Source of the DNA: a virus
Strand: one strand, 5' to 3'
DNA length: 64,000 nucleotides
IMG/VR virus record: IMGVR_UViG_3300032246_001180
Span: 104,243 to 168,242 of that record
This document shows positions 19,236 to 55,324 of this stretch, piece after piece. Every line of letters begins with the position of its first letter. Position 1 is the first letter of the stretch. A program made the position numbers and the translations under genes. The notes beneath the pieces are model-generated. The model did not search any database. It was given only the letters and a program-made list of their open reading frames with translations, and was not told the DNA's origin.

Positions 19236-19892
19236 ATGTTCAACTATTGTCCACCAAAAGAATTACCTGATTTACAATCAGAAACTTTCCCTGACGGAAA
19301 AAGATATTACAAATTACTTGATGGTACAAAACTACCTTCTGTAACTACCGTATTGGGTGCTATGAAAAAAGATGCAATCATGGCATGGCGCCAGCGTGTT
19401 GGTGAAGCCACCGCTAATGCAATATCAAAGAAAGCCACGGGTCGTGGTACTAACGTACATACTTTGTGTGAACGATATTTGAACAATGAAGATATGGGCA
19501 CCATGATGCCTGATGCATTAGAGATGTTCTATTCTCTAAAACCATTTTTGAATAATATCAATAATATACACTACCAAGAACAGGCACTTTGGTCTAAACA
19601 ATTAGGTTTGGCCGGTCGTGTAGACTGTATTGGTGAATATAATGGCGAGTTATCAGTTATAGATTTTAAAACTTCCAAAAAAATCAAAACCAAAGTTCAG
19701 ATTGAAGATTACTTCTGGCAGACCGCAGCGTATGCTTTGATGTATGAGGAGATGATTGGACTTCCAATCAATAACCTTGTTGTTATTATGGCTGTAGAAA
19801 ATGAACAACCTTTAGTATTTGAAGAAAAAACGGAAAACCACATTGATGGGTTGGTGAAAGCAATTCAATTTTATAAGGACCAATACAAATGA
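19236..19892 (+). CDS. PD-(D/E)XK exonuclease
   Basis: PSVTTVL, RGT.VH, AGRVDC, IDFKTS, Q.AAY. Confidence 0.9.
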   Translation: MFNYCPPKELPDLQSETFPDGKRYYKLLDGTKLPSVTTVLGAMKKDAIMAWRQRVGEATANAISKKATGRGTNVHTLCERYLNNEDMGTMMPDALEMFYSLKPFLNNINNIHYQEQALWSKQLGLAGRVDCIGEYNGELSVIDFKTSKKIKTKVQIEDYFWQTAAYALMYEEMIGLPINNLVVIMAVENEQPLVFEEKTENHIDGLVKAIQFYKDQYK

Positions 19893-20550: not shown

Positions 20551-21387
20551 ATGAAAACTATAAAAACAATCTTTGGTATCACGTTAATTGGTTTATTACT
20601 GATTTCGATTAACAATGCGTTTGCATGGACACAAAGACCTAATTTTCCACAAGAGCAATGTGCAGTTCACGCACCTTACGGATTTCCACAGGCCGCAGGT
20701 TCACCAATCTGCCGTCAAGCATATTATGTTGACTATGATGCAGCTGCAAAGTTGCCAAAGGTTGTAACATACACTTTAACACCACCAAATGCAATAGGTT
20801 GTGTTGCTAGAACTAACGCATTTACAGCAGACCAATCGATTCAGAATGGCGCCAGACCAGATGACTACGCAGCCACAGGTTACGATAAAGGTCATATGGC
20901 ACCTGATGGTGATTTAAGTTGGGACCAACAAGTTGAATATGAATCGTTTTTGATGACCAATATGAGTCCTCAAGCAGGTTCATTGAACAGAGGTATTTGG
21001 AAGTTGTTGGAAACATCTGTGCGTGGCTGGGTTGTACAACGCAATCAAGTATATACAATTTATGTTGGTGGTGTTTACAACGCAAATGATAAACGAATTG
21101 GTACTGGTGTTGTTGTACCAAATGCATTTTATAAAATTGTAATTAATCAATCAACAAACGAAGTTGCTGGTTGGTATTTCCCTCATGTGGCACCTTATCC
21201 AAATTTAGGTAATGATTTGACAAAGTTTAGAGCAAGTGTTGGACAAATACAACAAGCAGCAGGTGTACGTTTTGGTTTCCCAGCAACAGCAAGAGAGATA
21301 GCAGTTGGTCAAGAATGGCCAGTTGATTATGGTGCATTAACAAACGCTAAGCGTGCTAAATGTGGTAGTAATGCATCTGCTGATTGA
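20551..21387 (+). CDS. secreted DNA/RNA non-specific endonuclease (NucA/EndA family)
   Basis: signal peptide; GYDKGH.AP, F.MTNM.PQ...LNRG.W..LE..VR, VP.AFYKI. Confidence 0.9.
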   Translation: MKTIKTIFGITLIGLLLISINNAFAWTQRPNFPQEQCAVHAPYGFPQAAGSPICRQAYYVDYDAAAKLPKVVTYTLTPPNAIGCVARTNAFTADQSIQNGARPDDYAATGYDKGHMAPDGDLSWDQQVEYESFLMTNMSPQAGSLNRGIWKLLETSVRGWVVQRNQVYTIYVGGVYNANDKRIGTGVVVPNAFYKIVINQSTNEVAGWYFPHVAPYPNLGNDLTKFRASVGQIQQAAGVRFGFPATAREIAVGQEWPVDYGALTNAKRAKCGSNASAD

Positions 21388-21412
21388 CTTTTTAGCAAGG
21401 AGCATATATAAT
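21384..21412 (+). promoter_or_regulatory. sigma70 promoter, probably for the tmRNA precursor
   Basis: TTGACT 21384-21389, N17, TATAAT 21407-21412. Confidence 0.75.
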
Positions 21413-21542
21413 GAACTTTAAACGTAAAAAAACAAAGAGGTGCGTTCGTTGTACAATGTGTACACAGCATCGATGGTTAGGTAACAACAAAGGTCGTAAA
21501 CCTATCCGTGATATGCGAAACGAACAAAAAGAATTGTTGTAA
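21411..21542 (+). CDS. 43-aa basic Cys/His protein
   Basis: AAGGAG SD; MNFKRKKTKRCVRCTMCTQHRWLGNNKGRKPIRDMRNEQKELL. Confidence 0.55.
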   Translation: MNFKRKKTKRCVRCTMCTQHRWLGNNKGRKPIRDMRNEQKELL

Positions 21543-21826
21543 TCCCTTCTAAGCGAAGGACTTCTGGACGGGGGTGCGAATCCCCCCAGCTCCACCAATT
21601 ATCTACTTTTATCCGGAAACAGATAATTATTCGGATTAAATAAAAGTGTATAATTGATGGGGCTGCATAGTTTCGACAGGGGTAGATAGTAAAGACGGCA
21701 ACACGGTAGGCGATGACCGTTAATCAAGCAAAACAAGTAAACGCAAACGATAGCGAATACGCATTAGCAGCTTAAAGGCCGCTTAGGGTTTTTGGCAGTT
21801 TATCCTCGTAACAGAATTAAACTGCC
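21535..21826 (+). ncRNA. ssrA: circularly permuted (two-piece) tmRNA
   Basis: acceptor piece ending GGGGGTGCGAATCCCCC-CAGCTCCACCA (21597); hairpin intervening segment 21598-21658; coding piece from GGGGCTG (21659) with G3-U70, pk1 and tag ANDSEYALAA* (21743-21775). Confidence 0.93.
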
Positions 21827-21896
21827 TAAATAAATTTACTAGACAACACACACAATCGTCTAGTAATACACATAAACACACACAAGGAGTAAAAAT

Positions 21897-22809: not shown

Positions 22810-23031
22810 ATGCCTACTAAAGATGAGATTAAAGAATTCAGTTCGTTGATTGAAGAAATGGCCAAACGATTGCGATGTACCCGTTTAGATGCCATTCTAC
22901 ACCATTGCAAAGAATCTGGATTAGAAGTTGAAGTGGCTTCAAGTTTGATATCGCCTGCTCTCAAGAGTCGCATCAAAGAAGAAGCACAAGATGCAAATAT
23001 GTTGAAAAAGAGTTCACGTTTGCCGATATGA
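22810..23031 (+). CDS. gp33: late-transcription co-activator gp33
   Basis: FS..IE......DAI.H.C....E.E....LIS..LK..I..EA...N.L...S.LPI; synteny with gp59/gp32. Confidence 0.85.
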   Translation: MPTKDEIKEFSSLIEEMAKRLRCTRLDAILHHCKESGLEVEVASSLISPALKSRIKEEAQDANMLKKSSRLPI

Positions 23032-23648
23032 ATGAGAATACAGGCTTTGCAGCTTACGCTCTGTGGAATGCCTTGAAGCTGCACTTTACATCCGATTCGT
23101 ATGATTATTTTAAATACAACGGCAAAACCAATGTATCAAAACAAACGTTTTCCATAAGAAAAGATAAGTACCAGTTTTATAAACTTAGTCGTAAGTATGG
23201 TTTAGAAGAATTGAAAAACTTTTATGTGGCAAACTTTGTATATGGTAAATCTGATTGGGTAGGTGAACTGTTGCAGGATGGCAACGAACATTATTTAAAG
23301 TGGCAAAAAACCATCCAGAGCTTGACTTATACCTTTGAAAATGATATAATATATTTGTTCGATTTGGTAGATGGTGCGGAGTTTTCAACCCGTGATGATA
23401 TTTTAAAACCAATTGAAGGTGGTTGGCCAATGATTATTACCAAACTAATGAAAGGTAAAGTATCATTGGAATCTGTTTGTATTATGGTTGATGTTGTTGG
23501 TTGTATGCCTAGATGGGAAAAACAAATTACTGATGATATCATTTGGCCAACGTACCATAGATTGATTAAGAAGTATACACCATTTATCGAATATGATAAA
23601 GAAAAATATACAAACATTTTGAAAGAAAAGATTAAAGAGTATGGCTGA
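23028..23648 (+). CDS. gp59: helicase loader gp59
   Basis: ALKLHFT...YDYFKY.GK...RKDKY.F.KLS. Confidence 0.88.
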   Translation: MNENTGFAAYALWNALKLHFTSDSYDYFKYNGKTNVSKQTFSIRKDKYQFYKLSRKYGLEELKNFYVANFVYGKSDWVGELLQDGNEHYLKWQKTIQSLTYTFENDIIYLFDLVDGAEFSTRDDILKPIEGGWPMIITKLMKGKVSLESVCIMVDVVGCMPRWEKQITDDIIWPTYHRLIKKYTPFIEYDKEKYTNILKEKIKEYG

Positions 23649-24823: not shown

Positions 24824-25711
24824 ATGAGTTCATTTGCAAACCTCAAACGCCAATCTGGCAATCTCGATAAGCTTTCTAAAGCAATCGAAGCTCTCAACAC
24901 TAGCGAGAGCGGTTCAGAAAAACAGGATAACTTCTGGCGACCAGAAGTAGACAAAGCTGGCAACGGCATGGCTACAATCCGTTTTCTCCCCGCACCCTCA
25001 GTTGATGGTGATGACGCACTACCTTGGGCAAAAGTCTTCTCTCACGGGTTCCAAGGACCTGGTGGTTGGTTAATCGATAACTGTTTGACTACCAAAAATC
25101 AACAATGTCCTGTCTGCGAACATAATTCTGCTTTGTGGAATTCTGGCATCGAAGCCAATAAAGATGTTGTTCGTAAACAAAAGCGTAAGCTGAATTATAT
25201 CGCTAACGTCTACATTGTTTCGGATCCAAAACACCCCGAAAATGAAGGCAAAATCAAACTCTTTAAGTTTGGTAAGAAAATCTTTGACAAGATTACTGAA
25301 GCCATGAACCCACAATTTGAAGATGAAACTGCAATCAATCCGTTTGATTTGTGGAAAGGTGCTAACTTCAAGTTGAAGATTCGTAAAGTTGAAGGCTATC
25401 AGAATTATGATAAATCCGAATTTGATTCTCCTTCTGCTCTATTGTCTGATGATGATGAGTTGGAGAAAATCTGGAAGAATGAATTCTCATTGGCAGAAAT
25501 GACTGCTGAAAAAGAATTCAAATCGTATGACGCTTTGAAACAGCGCCTAGATAAAGTTCTTGGTTTGAATGGTGAAGCACCACGCACAACTGTTGAACAA
25601 ACAAAGGCAAAGAACTTTGATGCACCTAAGAAAGCAACCGCTGAACCGGTTCTTGCTGATGGTGATGAAGATGATTTGTCATACTTCTCAAAACTTGCTG
25701 AAGAAGAATAA
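24824..25711 (+). CDS. gp32: single-stranded DNA-binding protein gp32
   Basis: DKAGNG.A.IRFLP, H.FQGPGGW, C.TT...CPVCE, acidic tail. Confidence 0.95.
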   Translation: MSSFANLKRQSGNLDKLSKAIEALNTSESGSEKQDNFWRPEVDKAGNGMATIRFLPAPSVDGDDALPWAKVFSHGFQGPGGWLIDNCLTTKNQQCPVCEHNSALWNSGIEANKDVVRKQKRKLNYIANVYIVSDPKHPENEGKIKLFKFGKKIFDKITEAMNPQFEDETAINPFDLWKGANFKLKIRKVEGYQNYDKSEFDSPSALLSDDDELEKIWKNEFSLAEMTAEKEFKSYDALKQRLDKVLGLNGEAPRTTVEQTKAKNFDAPKKATAEPVLADGDEDDLSYFSKLAEEE

Positions 25712-53161: not shown

Positions 53162-55324
53162 ATGTCTATTCAATCGGCAATATATAATTTTAAGTCAACA
53201 ATAACTGCATATAATGGTGTAACCAAAGTTGCAACATTAAGTTCGCCTGTGGAAATTTCTTTAGGGTATAATGGTACCTTAGGTCAATTAACATCACAAT
53301 ATACGTTATCAGGAAACAACACAAGTATTCTTGCAGCTATTAGAGATGGTACACAACCAAATCAATTATCTACTGATGAAAATGGAAGTTTTTATGGCAT
53401 TCTTAATGTGCCACCAGGAACATTTAAAGTTGGTTCTAGAGTTTTTCGTTTAGACAATAGAACAATTGATAATGATCCATCGACAGCAACAACTTATGCT
53501 GAAGCAACCTTCACTGCTGCAGGTCTTTCTACAACATCACAAACGTTGCAATTTTCTCCGTCAACAGATTCGGCATCAGTAAAATTTACACCAACACAGT
53601 ACCAATCAAAACAACAAATTAGTACGATTGCCAGTTACACTCAATTTGATCCTGTTGCACAATCATTTATTGTACCAAAAGAAAACTATCCAAACGGTGT
53701 GTTTATTCTTTCGGTAAAACTTTTCTTTAGAACAAAACCTACTACAACAAACACTCCTGTTGTTGTTTCTATTGTACCAACATTGAATGGTTATCCAAAT
53801 GGCGATGCATTGGACTATTCTACTGTTTCACTACACGCAGACCAAGTTCAAACAAGCACAACACCACATTATTTGGACGCTTCATCATACACGGAATTTA
53901 TGTTTAAGGCTCCCGTGTATATTAAAGCTGGCGAAACATATGCAATATTGATTCAAACAAGTTCGCCTGATTATACTGTTTACTATGCTCAACAAAATTC
54001 TACTGCTGTTGCTTCAACAGCGAGAGCTTTACCAACAGATAGTATACCTTCAAACCCAACAAAAATTGGTGCTGTACCTAATAGTGGTGCATTTTTTGAA
54101 TCACAAAATGGTTCAACATGGACTGCGGATTTAACCAAAGATTTGATGTATGTAATTGATAGATGTGTGTTTAATACTGCTATCACACCACAAATTAATT
54201 TCGTTGTGCCGCAAGGAATGCCTAAGAGAAAACTTCTTACTAGCGATATTCAATATAAATTGGATCCAGATTTAGTAAACGGAATTTATCGTAGTGCAGG
54301 TGGTAGTCAACGTGTTGATGCTCTAAATGTAACCACAACTGACTTTTCTCCTACAAGTACCGCAATTAATTATCAATATACGGGAACACTATTGAAAGGA
54401 AATATAACAGATGGTCCTTATAGTATTATTCCTGGAAAATATGCATCACCTTTATCAGAAGAAATTCATTTAAATGATGGTAAAGGCGCTCGTGTTTTAT
54501 TGGCAAACACAGACAGCTCATTCACATTAGCTGCAACTCTTTCATCAAATGATTCAGCGGTTAGTCCAATTCTATCAGATGATGGTTTAACATTGTATAA
54601 TGTTCGATACTCTATTAACAATATGGGTTTATCTAATCCTGTTATTTCGATTGCAAATACTGGTGCTGGATATAATGCGAATACAACTAGTGTAACAGTA
54701 AGTTCTCCAGATATTGGTACAGATATTGCCGTATGTTCTGCAAACGTACAAAGTGGAAACGTTGTTTCTGTTACAGTAACTTATCGTGGTTCAGGATACT
54801 TAACTACACCAACAATCACAGTATCAGATTCTACGACCCGTGGCGGTAATGCAAACTGTGTAGTGGTTGTTTCAGGTGAAACAAGTCCTGCCGGTGGAAA
54901 CGGAATTACCAAATACTTCACTAAGAAGGTTGTGCTTGCTGCTGGACAAGACTCAGGTGATTTGCGTGTGTATTATTCTGCATACAAACCAGTTGGTACT
55001 GGTGTATATGTCTACTACAAAATATTAAGTAGTAACGACACACAAAAATTTGAAGAAGGAAATTGGCAACTAATGACACAAGTTGGAGGATATAATACAT
55101 ACTCCGCCAACAGAAATGATATTATAGAATATGAATGTGCGCCAGGTTCATTTACTAGTGGTTTGGCCAACAATTCAATTTCTTACACAGGCATTAATGG
55201 TCAAACGTATAACAACTTTATTCAGTTTGCAATTAAAGTCGTAATGGCTACCAAAGATTCAACTAATATTCCTATCATAGAAGACATCCGTGCGTTAGCG
55301 TTACCATCAGGAACAGGAATTTAA
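53162..55324 (+). CDS. VrlC/DUF4815-like structural protein, C-terminal part
   Basis: TDENG, DP.AQSF, F.F..PVY, F.SQNG.TW, F..FAIK.V...P...D.RA.A. Confidence 0.8.
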   Translation: MSIQSAIYNFKSTITAYNGVTKVATLSSPVEISLGYNGTLGQLTSQYTLSGNNTSILAAIRDGTQPNQLSTDENGSFYGILNVPPGTFKVGSRVFRLDNRTIDNDPSTATTYAEATFTAAGLSTTSQTLQFSPSTDSASVKFTPTQYQSKQQISTIASYTQFDPVAQSFIVPKENYPNGVFILSVKLFFRTKPTTTNTPVVVSIVPTLNGYPNGDALDYSTVSLHADQVQTSTTPHYLDASSYTEFMFKAPVYIKAGETYAILIQTSSPDYTVYYAQQNSTAVASTARALPTDSIPSNPTKIGAVPNSGAFFESQNGSTWTADLTKDLMYVIDRCVFNTAITPQINFVVPQGMPKRKLLTSDIQYKLDPDLVNGIYRSAGGSQRVDALNVTTTDFSPTSTAINYQYTGTLLKGNITDGPYSIIPGKYASPLSEEIHLNDGKGARVLLANTDSSFTLAATLSSNDSAVSPILSDDGLTLYNVRYSINNMGLSNPVISIANTGAGYNANTTSVTVSSPDIGTDIAVCSANVQSGNVVSVTVTYRGSGYLTTPTITVSDSTTRGGNANCVVVVSGETSPAGGNGITKYFTKKVVLAAGQDSGDLRVYYSAYKPVGTGVYVYYKILSSNDTQKFEEGNWQLMTQVGGYNTYSANRNDIIEYECAPGSFTSGLANNSISYTGINGQTYNNFIQFAIKVVMATKDSTNIPIIEDIRALALPSGTGI

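What the first reader, a model, noticed from the sequence alone, without database searches (positions are those of the whole stretch)
21535..21826. Phage-encoded circularly permuted (two-piece) tmRNA
Seen: the 3' tRNA-like half (T-arm, CAGCTCC-A-CCA at 21597) comes BEFORE the 5' half (GGGGCTG at 21659). A 61-nt AT-rich spacer between them folds back (CAATTAT/ATAATTG, ACTTTTAT/ATAAAAGT, ATCCGGA/TTCGGAT) and extends the acceptor stem. The stem has the G3-U70 alanine identity pair. Inter-piece helices are ACTTCTG/CAGGGGT and TGTTGT/GCAACA; pk1 is ACGGT/ACCGT; the tag is ANDSEYALAA*. Established: two-piece tmRNAs occur in alphaproteobacteria, some marine cyanobacteria and a few betaproteobacteria, and phage tmRNAs are uncommon. 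Inference: a compact phage ribosome-rescue RNA that uses host SmpB, possibly backing up a host tmRNA cut by defence RNases, and possibly from an independent permutation event.
Basis: partly seen in the sequence, partly recalled or inferred. Interest (0 to 1): 0.85.

Follow-up and report, generated by a model that had tools for sequence, protein, structure and literature searches.

The report
Two-piece tmRNA gene in phage
This uncultured T4-like phage carries a real, conserved "back-to-front" (two-piece) gene for tmRNA, the RNA that frees stalled ribosomes. Such genes are already described in aquatic T4-like phages, so it is a sound but ordinary find.

Summary
ARAGORN calls a permuted tmRNA with tag ANDSEYALAA. 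Rfam matches tmRNA_permuted (150.9 bits, cut-off 47) and, end to end, the betaproteobacterial two-piece model (140.8 bits, cut-off 84).

The record is a 168-kb virus, rated complete by CheckV. It is T4-like (gp32, gp59, gp33, baseplate genes), carries 24 tRNAs, and has no integrase, SmpB, SspB or ClpP.

Eighteen related viral copies show compensatory changes in the helices, an invariant G3-U70 acceptor stem and a preserved tag frame. The spacer between the halves varies widely but always forms a hairpin. The gene is therefore under selection as a working tmRNA that must use host SmpB, AlaRS and proteases.

It lies upstream of gp33-gp59-gp32, the same neighbourhood as the published tmRNA of phage Melnitz. 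Phage two-piece tmRNAs are in print (Buchholz 2022: 53 of 133 unique phage tmRNAs).

An independent permutation is not supported. The RNA shares PK1 and the 3' hairpin loop with cellular beta-type genes, and is as close to them as they are to each other. The anti-defence idea is untested.

This scan has noted phage two-piece tmRNAs hundreds of times on other DNA. Verdict: new member of a known kind, low interest.

The parts
21384..21412 (+). Sigma-70-like promoter, TTGACT-17-TATAAT (11 of 12). It is the only good promoter-like site upstream of the tmRNA on this strand.
   Evidence: Consensus match only. In 15 or so relatives a -10-like element (often TGTTATAAT) lies directly before the first helix instead.
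21411..21543 (+). Small basic Cys-rich ORF of 43 aa. Its stop codon overlaps the first helix of the tmRNA. It is a neighbour, not part of the RNA's function as far as shown.
   Evidence: six homologues of 40-47 aa at 68-90% identity. One search finds a homologue in L026 downstream of that contig's tmRNA. No Pfam or PHROG match.
21535..21597 (+). Acceptor piece (3' tRNA-like half, 63 nt). Contains helix strands 21535-40 and 21560-66, a local hairpin CCTTC/GAAGG, the T arm at 21570-86, the acceptor 3' strand at 21587-93, discriminator A at 21594 and an encoded CCA at 21595-97.
   Evidence: The T arm and acceptor strand are invariant in 17 distinct relatives.
21598..21658 (+). Intervening sequence (61 nt, AT-rich), presumed to be cut out. 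It folds into a hairpin that extends the acceptor stem.
   Evidence: z -7.6. In relatives it ranges from about 20 to about 85 nt and varies in sequence, but its base helix is kept with compensatory changes (96.6% of cells paired, 4 of 7 pairs changed on both sides). TGAT before G1 is invariant.
21659..21829 (+). Coding piece (about 171 nt). Contains the acceptor 5' strand GGGGCTG, the TTTCGAC D-loop-like element, helix strands 21677-83 and 21698-703, the PK1 hairpin at 21704-19, the tag frame, a hairpin around the stop codon at 21767-82, and the 3' hairpin at 21794-21826 with loop CCTCGTAACAGAAT.
21743..21775 (+). Tag reading frame: GCA AAC GAT AGC GAA TAC GCA TTA GCA GCT TAA, reading ANDSEYALAA*.
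   Evidence: In relatives the frame is kept (ANDSQFALAA in most), with synonymous changes and a Ser TCA/AGC codon switch.
21836..21866 (+). 12-bp hairpin just after the gene. It has no T run on the + strand, so it is not a canonical terminator for the tmRNA.
   Evidence: The scan flagged it only on the minus strand.

Best explanation
This is a functional ssrA gene of the circularly permuted, betaproteobacterial-type two-piece form, carried by a lytic T4-like phage.

Proposed mechanism:
1. Host RNA polymerase makes one precursor. The likely promoter is at 21384-21412, because no -10 element sits directly before the gene here.
2. Host tRNA-processing enzymes cut it. RNase P would cut 5' of G21659, and 3' trimming would stop at the encoded CCA at 21597. 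The 61-nt hairpin spacer is removed.
3. This leaves an acceptor piece of about 63 nt and a coding piece of about 170 nt, held together by the acceptor stem and two further helices.
4. Host AlaRS charges the RNA through G3-U70.
5. Host SmpB and EF-Tu deliver it to ribosomes stalled on broken messages.
6. Translation resumes at GCA 21743 and adds (A)ANDSEYALAA. The LAA end sends the product to host ClpXP-type proteases.
7. The ribosome is released at UAA.

Likely benefit: together with the phage's 24 tRNAs, it keeps ribosomes available while host and phage nucleases generate truncated mRNAs.

Shown: gene anatomy, family membership, selection on structure and tag, and absence of phage-encoded protein partners. 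Inferred: processing, charging, use of host SmpB and the benefit to the phage.
For: - ARAGORN permuted call and tag.
- Rfam RF04321 at 150.9 bits and RF01850 at 140.8 bits, full length.
- Covariation in 18 viral homologues: 19 pairs changed on both sides against 8.7 in shuffles (0 of 500 reach it), and 4-11 in slid controls. 87.8% of cells are paired. The acceptor stem with G3-U70 and the T arm are invariant.
- The tag frame is preserved, with synonymous changes and a Ser codon-family switch.
- The spacer is hypervariable, as expected for an excised segment, but keeps its hairpin.
- Conserved slot between an exonuclease gene and gp33-gp59-gp32 across related contigs.
- The phage has 24 tRNAs and no SmpB, SspB, ClpP or integrase.
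- The same kind of gene in the same neighbourhood is published for phage Melnitz (PMC9004378).
Against: - There are no expression, processing, charging or tagging data.
- The host is unknown.
- The T loop is UGCGAAU, with G in place of the usual U55. Only 5 of 120 cellular tmRNA hits to a degenerate pattern had this G.
- The last hairpin of the beta model is missing.
- A second PK1 stem was not found.
- Unlike most relatives, this copy has no -10 element directly upstream, and a 43-codon ORF overlaps its 5' end.
- There is no canonical terminator.
Confidence: 0.82

Rival explanations
1. The RNA works as a tmRNA, but its main use is a phage-specific tag. The phage would redirect which stalled products are degraded, or how fast, for example to recycle host proteins or to spare its own, rather than simply add rescue capacity.
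For: The tag differs from the one-piece tags of Methylophilaceae and Burkholderiales found in the genome scan (ANDETYALAA, ANDERFALAA) at two inner positions. Within the phage family these inner positions vary (SQF, SEY, EKF, ESY) while AND...LAA is kept. Buchholz et al. raise this idea for Melnitz (PMC9004378).
Against: The residues known from E. coli work to matter for SspB and ClpX (N, D, Y/F, LAA; my knowledge of Flynn 2001, cited in PMC5587285) are all kept. The tag therefore looks like an ordinary degron. The phage encodes no adaptor or protease.
Confidence: 0.08
2. Counter-defence spare part: the phage copy replaces host tmRNA, or escapes a nuclease, when a host defence or toxin cuts tRNA-like RNAs or floods the cell with non-stop mRNAs.
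For: It sits in a genome with a near-complete tRNA set. Its sequence is far from any cellular copy found: at most 73% identity in the coding piece. Its T loop is unusual.
Against: Nothing in the sequence tests this. No defence system is known to me that targets tmRNA. The simpler capacity argument explains the same facts.
Confidence: 0.06
3. Decoy: the RNA binds host SmpB or ribosomes and blocks host trans-translation, as reported for the tag-less tRNA-like form of mycobacteriophage DS6A (cited in PMC11915505).
For: The phage depends on host SmpB, so competition with the host tmRNA is unavoidable.
Against: A complete tag frame with a canonical degron is conserved across the family, which a decoy would not need.
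Confidence: 0.02
4. Passenger or remnant: a recently captured host gene, or a leftover of an integration site, with no function for the phage.
For: tmRNA genes are common integration sites, and fragments of them occur in prophages (PMC9004378, PMC4383910).
Against: The gene is complete. There is no integrase. No near-identical cellular gene was found in the loci fetched or in 151 sampled genomes. Position, structure and tag are conserved in many diverged phage contigs.
Confidence: 0.02

Closest known systems
Two-piece tmRNAs of aquatic T4-like myophages (Methylophilales phage Melnitz, pelagimyophages; Buchholz et al. 2022, PMC9004378)
   Same: - A permuted ssrA in a lytic T4-like phage.
- It lies upstream of the gp33 late-transcription coactivator, gp59 and gp32, behind a sigma-70-type promoter.
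- No phage SmpB.
- Related contigs of the Melnitz kind (L004, L017, L020, L027, L028) have their tmRNA in the same slot.
   Different: - The Melnitz gene is reported as alpha-type and carries a glutamine riboswitch in its 3' part. This one scores best as beta-type, and Rfam finds no riboswitch in the window.
- Here two genes (orf91 and a cell-wall hydrolase) lie between the tmRNA and gp33.
Betaproteobacterial two-piece tmRNA (Rfam RF01850; Sharkady and Williams 2004, cited from memory because the paper was not held)
   Same: - Same gene order and the same helices joining the pieces.
- Near-identical PK1 hairpin (CGGUAGGCGA-GACCG).
- 3' hairpin with an AACAGAAU loop.
- AND..(F/Y)ALAA tag.
   Different: - It scores 140.8 bits against 169-296 for three cellular genes.
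- The spacer is 61 nt, against about 27 in the model.
- The terminal hairpin is absent.
- The T loop has G55.
- It is carried by a virus of about 36% G+C.
Unannotated permuted tmRNA of Pseudomonas phage SM1 and relatives (NC_041877 and five other records)
   Same: Beta-type by Rfam (111 bits; 118.6 bits for tmRNA_permuted). It is a phage gene in a group whose named host genus is not one of the lineages known for two-piece tmRNA (my knowledge).
   Different: - A 93-kb siphovirus with different synteny.
- Tag ANDTSFDVRLAA.
- Long spacer.
- Canonical UUCGAUU T loop.

Membership tests
tmRNA (SsrA), permuted two-piece form | The 3' tRNA-like half with CCA lies upstream of the 5' half in the gene | tested here: met
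   CCA ends at 21597 and G1 is at 21659. ARAGORN flags it tmRNA*. RF04321 scores 150.9 bits against a cut-off of 47.
tmRNA (SsrA), permuted two-piece form | tRNA-Ala-like domain: 7-bp acceptor stem with G3-U70, a T arm, and a D-loop-like UUUCGAC element | tested here: met
   All are invariant in 17 distinct relatives. The T loop has G at position 55, which is unusual.
tmRNA (SsrA), permuted two-piece form | A short tag frame that starts at an Ala resume codon and ends in a hydrophobic degron plus a stop codon | tested here: met
   GCA at 21743 to TAA at 21775, reading ANDSEYALAA*. The frame is conserved in relatives.
tmRNA (SsrA), permuted two-piece form | The precursor is cleaved into two base-paired RNAs | not testable with these tools
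   Only indirect support: the spacer is hypervariable while the flanks are invariant, and the helices joining the pieces covary.
tmRNA (SsrA), permuted two-piece form | Alanylation, SmpB binding and tagging of non-stop products | not testable with these tools
   The phage has no SmpB, so host SmpB would be needed.
Beta-type two-piece tmRNA (RF01850) | Full-length match over the family's gathering score, and the best match within the tmRNA clan | tested here: met
   140.8 bits against a cut-off of 84, model positions 1-331 of 331. Lower-scoring matches from the same clan were suppressed.
Beta-type two-piece tmRNA (RF01850) | Type-specific elements outside the tRNA domain: the PK1 hairpin sequence, the 3' hairpin with its conserved loop, and the terminal hairpin | tested here: inconclusive
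   PK1 and the 3' hairpin loop are shared with cellular L154. The terminal hairpin is absent. The AACAGAA loop motif also occurs in the alpha model consensus, so it is not specific to the beta type.
Beta-type two-piece tmRNA (RF01850) | Descent from the betaproteobacterial permutation rather than a separate event | tested here: inconclusive
   Identity to cellular beta-type genes (62-64% overall, up to 73% in the coding piece) is within their own range. No rooted tree was made.

The most novel reading that the evidence does not exclude
Aquatic T4-like phages, rather than cells, may be the main reservoir and vector of beta-type two-piece tmRNA. On this reading the gene is inherited in a fixed slot next to gp33-gp59-gp32, and alpha-type and beta-type versions are exchanged there. 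The patchy cellular distribution (4 of 151 sampled genomes of the order) would partly reflect transfer from phages.
Probability: 0.12. Interest if true: 0.55.

Novelty: new member of a known kind. Interest (0 to 1): 0.2.

Why it matters
It adds one more well-supported case showing that large aquatic phages carry their own ribosome-rescue RNA alongside a near-complete tRNA set. It also shows that the beta-type form occurs in the same genomic slot as the published alpha-type form. It opens no new question by itself. The useful by-products are an annotation for an uncultured phage, evidence of selection on structure and tag, and a pointer to unannotated copies in cultured Pseudomonas phages, which could serve as an experimental system.

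Tried and rejected
- **Prophage or host fragment.** Rejected. The record is a 168-kb T4-like virus rated 100% complete, with no integrase.
- **Close relatives among deposited phages.** Megablast of 15 kb around the gene found nothing. Sensitive blastn of the gene found only the acceptor half in six Pseudomonas phages.
- **Host lineage from a genome-wide pattern scan.** The 31-mer pattern was too generic. It mostly hit one-piece tmRNAs from many phyla, and no cellular locus matched beyond the T arm.
- **Phage-encoded partners.** SmpB, SspB and ClpP were all absent.
- **The downstream 91-aa ORF as gp33.** Rejected. gp33 is the 73-aa ORF at 22810-23031. The 91-aa ORF is a viral hypothetical protein.
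- **The 43-aa ORF as a tmRNA-linked factor.** Its homologues lie next to a tmRNA (L026), inside a tRNA array (L183), or in unrelated phage contexts (L184, L185). No firm link emerged.
- **A second stem for PK1.** I looked by eye on the alignment and found none convincing.
- **A covariance model of the phage family.** Not built, because the alignment exceeds the size the tool will calibrate.
- **Sharkady and Williams 2004.** The paper could not be read.

Full report
**Observation**

- A T arm (GGGGG, loop UGCGAAU, CCCCC) is followed by CAGCTCC, a discriminator A and an encoded CCA ending at 21597.
- A 61-nt AT-rich spacer follows.
- GGGGCTG then starts at 21659 and pairs with CAGCTCC. This gives a 7-bp acceptor stem whose third pair is G-U.
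- The two helices that would join the pieces (21560-66 with 21677-83, and 21535-40 with 21698-703), the PK1 hairpin (21704-19) and the tag frame (21743-21775) are all present.

Standard programs agree.
- ARAGORN reports a permuted tmRNA with tag ANDSEYALAA.
- Rfam gives tmRNA_permuted at 150.9 bits (cut-off 47). It also gives the betaproteobacterial two-piece model at 140.8 bits (cut-off 84), covering all 331 model positions.
- The acceptor stem and spacer fold into one long hairpin (-29.7 kcal/mol, z -7.6).
- The 303-nt precursor fold recovers the T arm, the acceptor stem, one inter-piece helix and the 3' hairpin (z -3.4).

**Context**

The window is the last 64 kb of a 168,242-bp virus record that CheckV rates complete. 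The record is a T4-like myovirus.
- gp59 is at 23028-23648, gp32 at 24824-25711 and gp33 at 22810-23031.
- A baseplate and tail-fibre block lies at 34.8-57.9 kb.
- The closest gp32 among deposited phages is about 58% identical, in marine cyanomyophages.
- The genome has 24 tRNA genes in one region, plus this tmRNA.
- Six-frame Pfam searches found no integrase, SmpB, SspB or ClpP.

Upstream of the tmRNA lie an exonuclease gene (19236-19892), a 2OG-oxygenase-like gene and a non-specific endonuclease gene (20551-21387). Downstream lie a 91-aa viral hypothetical gene, a cell-wall hydrolase gene and then gp33-gp59.

**Relatives and selection**

An exact 32-mer from the T arm and acceptor strand occurs in 27 IMG/VR contigs. 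ARAGORN finds a permuted tmRNA in 22 of them. The others are cut at contig ends or were not called.

The closest relative, L016, is 92% identical over 286 nt and has the same tag.

In an alignment of 18 copies the helices show many compensatory changes. Examples from the end helix are TGTTGT/GCAACA, TGTCGT/GCGACA and GCTGT/ACAGC. The second helix shows A-U, G-C and C-G at one position. PK1 reads CGGT/ACCG, CACC/GGTG, CATC/GATG or CGTC/GACG. The 3' hairpin reads GGCAGTTT/AAACTGCC, GGTTGGTT/AACCAACC or GGTAGGT/ACCTACC.

Counted on the alignment as MAFFT made it:
- 19 pairs carry changes on both sides, against 8.7 in shuffles. None of 500 shuffles reaches the observed value, and slid controls give 4-11.
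- 87.8% of cells are paired.
- The acceptor stem, including G3-U70, and the T arm never vary.

The tag frame is kept. Most copies read ANDSQFALAA. This copy differs by synonymous changes, a Ser TCA-to-AGC switch, and Q to E and F to Y.

The spacer behaves like an excised segment. It runs from about 20 to about 85 nt and is unalignable in sequence, yet its base always pairs so as to extend the acceptor stem. TGAT always precedes G1.

These are the signatures of a working tmRNA, not a relic.

**Position in the genome**

Across the contigs the order exonuclease, tmRNA, (orf91, hydrolase), gp33, gp59, gp32 recurs, with variable small inserts.

Five contigs (L004, L017, L020, L027, L028) carry a tmRNA that Rfam scores as alpha-type (87.5 bits; tag ANYNFAHEDYALAA). 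In these it lies directly before gp33. [quoted passage not shown] The gene studied here therefore occupies the known slot, but in the beta-type form.

**Relation to cellular genes**

In 151 genomes sampled from the order that holds one Oxalobacteraceae MAG, only four had a beta-type match over the cut-off: 296, 251.5, 169 and 86.3 bits. One unpublished genome (G028) was in that sample.

Aligned with three cellular genes, the phage RNA is 62-64% identical over alignable positions and up to 73% in the coding piece (L154). The cellular genes are 60-79% identical to one another.

PK1 is almost the same as in L154, and the loop of the 3' hairpin shares AACAGAAU. The last hairpin of the model is missing and the spacer is longer.

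I therefore file it as a divergent member of the beta type. I find no support for a separate permutation event.

The AACAGAA loop motif is also in the alpha model consensus. The G at T-loop position 55 is the alpha consensus and is rare elsewhere: 5 of 120 cellular hits. The alpha/beta boundary is therefore not sharp for these phage genes. I did not build a tree.

**Mechanism**

The best reading is an ordinary trans-translation RNA that runs entirely on host proteins.
1. One precursor is transcribed.
2. RNase P cuts at G21659, the 3' end is trimmed to the encoded CCA, and the spacer is lost.
3. The two pieces stay paired.
4. AlaRS charges the RNA through G3-U70.
5. Host SmpB delivers it to stalled ribosomes.
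6. The tag is added, and its LAA end directs proteolysis.

Only the anatomy, the selection and the absence of phage partners are shown. Every biochemical step is inferred from what is established for tmRNA.

The likely benefit is ribosome recycling during infection, in a phage that also supplies its own tRNAs and nucleases.

This copy has one oddity. Most relatives have a -10-like element directly before the first helix. Here that position is taken by the end of a 43-codon ORF, and the only good promoter-like site is about 120 nt upstream, at 21384-21412.

**Known or new**

Buchholz et al. 2022 (PMC9004378) found tmRNA in 402 of 18,146 phage genomes.
- These gave 133 unique forms, 53 of them two-piece by ARAGORN and 50 of those from aquatic samples.
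- 17 of 47 Melnitz-like contigs carried one.

The tmRNA database paper (PMC11915505) lists 79 bacteriophage sequences and produced the model RF04321 that matches here.

This scan's own notes hold hundreds of phage two-piece tmRNA findings. These include look-alikes of this one, which earlier follow-ups also judged real but ordinary. I reached my verdict from my own tests.

This is a new member of a known kind. A standard annotation tool finds it without help.

Noticed in passing
window 21411-21543 (+); L026 9674-9790 (-); L183 3001-3141: A 43-aa basic protein with a KRKK...C-x2-C-x2-C...RWLGN motif overlaps the tmRNA 5' end. Six homologues (40-47 aa, 68-90% identity) exist in metagenomes. One lies just downstream of another phage's tmRNA and one lies inside a phage tRNA array; two others are in unrelated phage contexts. 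It has no Pfam or PHROG family. Its ATG falls inside the -10 hexamer of the promoter-like site.
   Followed up: partly
L182 1154-1596 (NC_041877.1, about 54020-54460); also OQ383211, PP869205, JQ067090, KU245542, ON857939: Cultured Pseudomonas phage SM1 has an unannotated beta-type permuted tmRNA (Rfam 111 and 118.6 bits; ARAGORN tag ANDTSFDVRLAA) beside a tRNA-Arg. Five other Pseudomonas phage records (one of them a second SM1 entry) matched the acceptor half but were not scanned. This would be a tractable system for testing what phage two-piece tmRNAs do.
   Followed up: partly
L004 4380-4846, L017, L020, L027, L028: Related T4-like contigs carry an alpha-type permuted tmRNA (tag ANYNFAHEDYALAA) directly upstream of gp33. 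This is the same slot as the beta-type gene here, and the 34-nt T arm and acceptor strand are identical. Either the slot is ancestral and the RNA diverged, or the types are swapped in place.
   Followed up: partly
L038 7261-7652 = L155 1500-1891 (Oxalobacteraceae MAG, 188-kb contig): A permuted tmRNA barely over the beta cut-off (86.3 bits) has a 28-residue tag ending QQAA. The long contig may be a mis-binned large phage. Earlier notes of this scan mention a lake phage tmRNA with a 27-residue tag.
   Followed up: no
window 21575-21581: The T loop reads UGCGAAU, with G at the position of the near-universal U55. Among 120 cellular tmRNA hits to a pattern left open at this base, only 5 had G: four candidate-phyla-radiation genomes and one alphaproteobacterial two-piece gene. 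The alpha model consensus also has G there.
   Followed up: partly
window 21649-21654: A TATAAT hexamer sits inside the spacer, 5 nt before G1 of the coding piece. It is present only in the closest relatives (L016, L006), so it is probably a by-product of the AT-rich hairpin rather than an internal promoter.
   Followed up: no
genome 42.2-47.1 kb (outside the window): An array of 24 tRNA genes covers 19 of the 20 amino acids (no tRNA-Cys), with three Met-anticodon genes. Earlier first-reader notes describe long stems there that start in the CCA of tRNAs, a layout like the spacer hairpin of the tmRNA.
   Followed up: no
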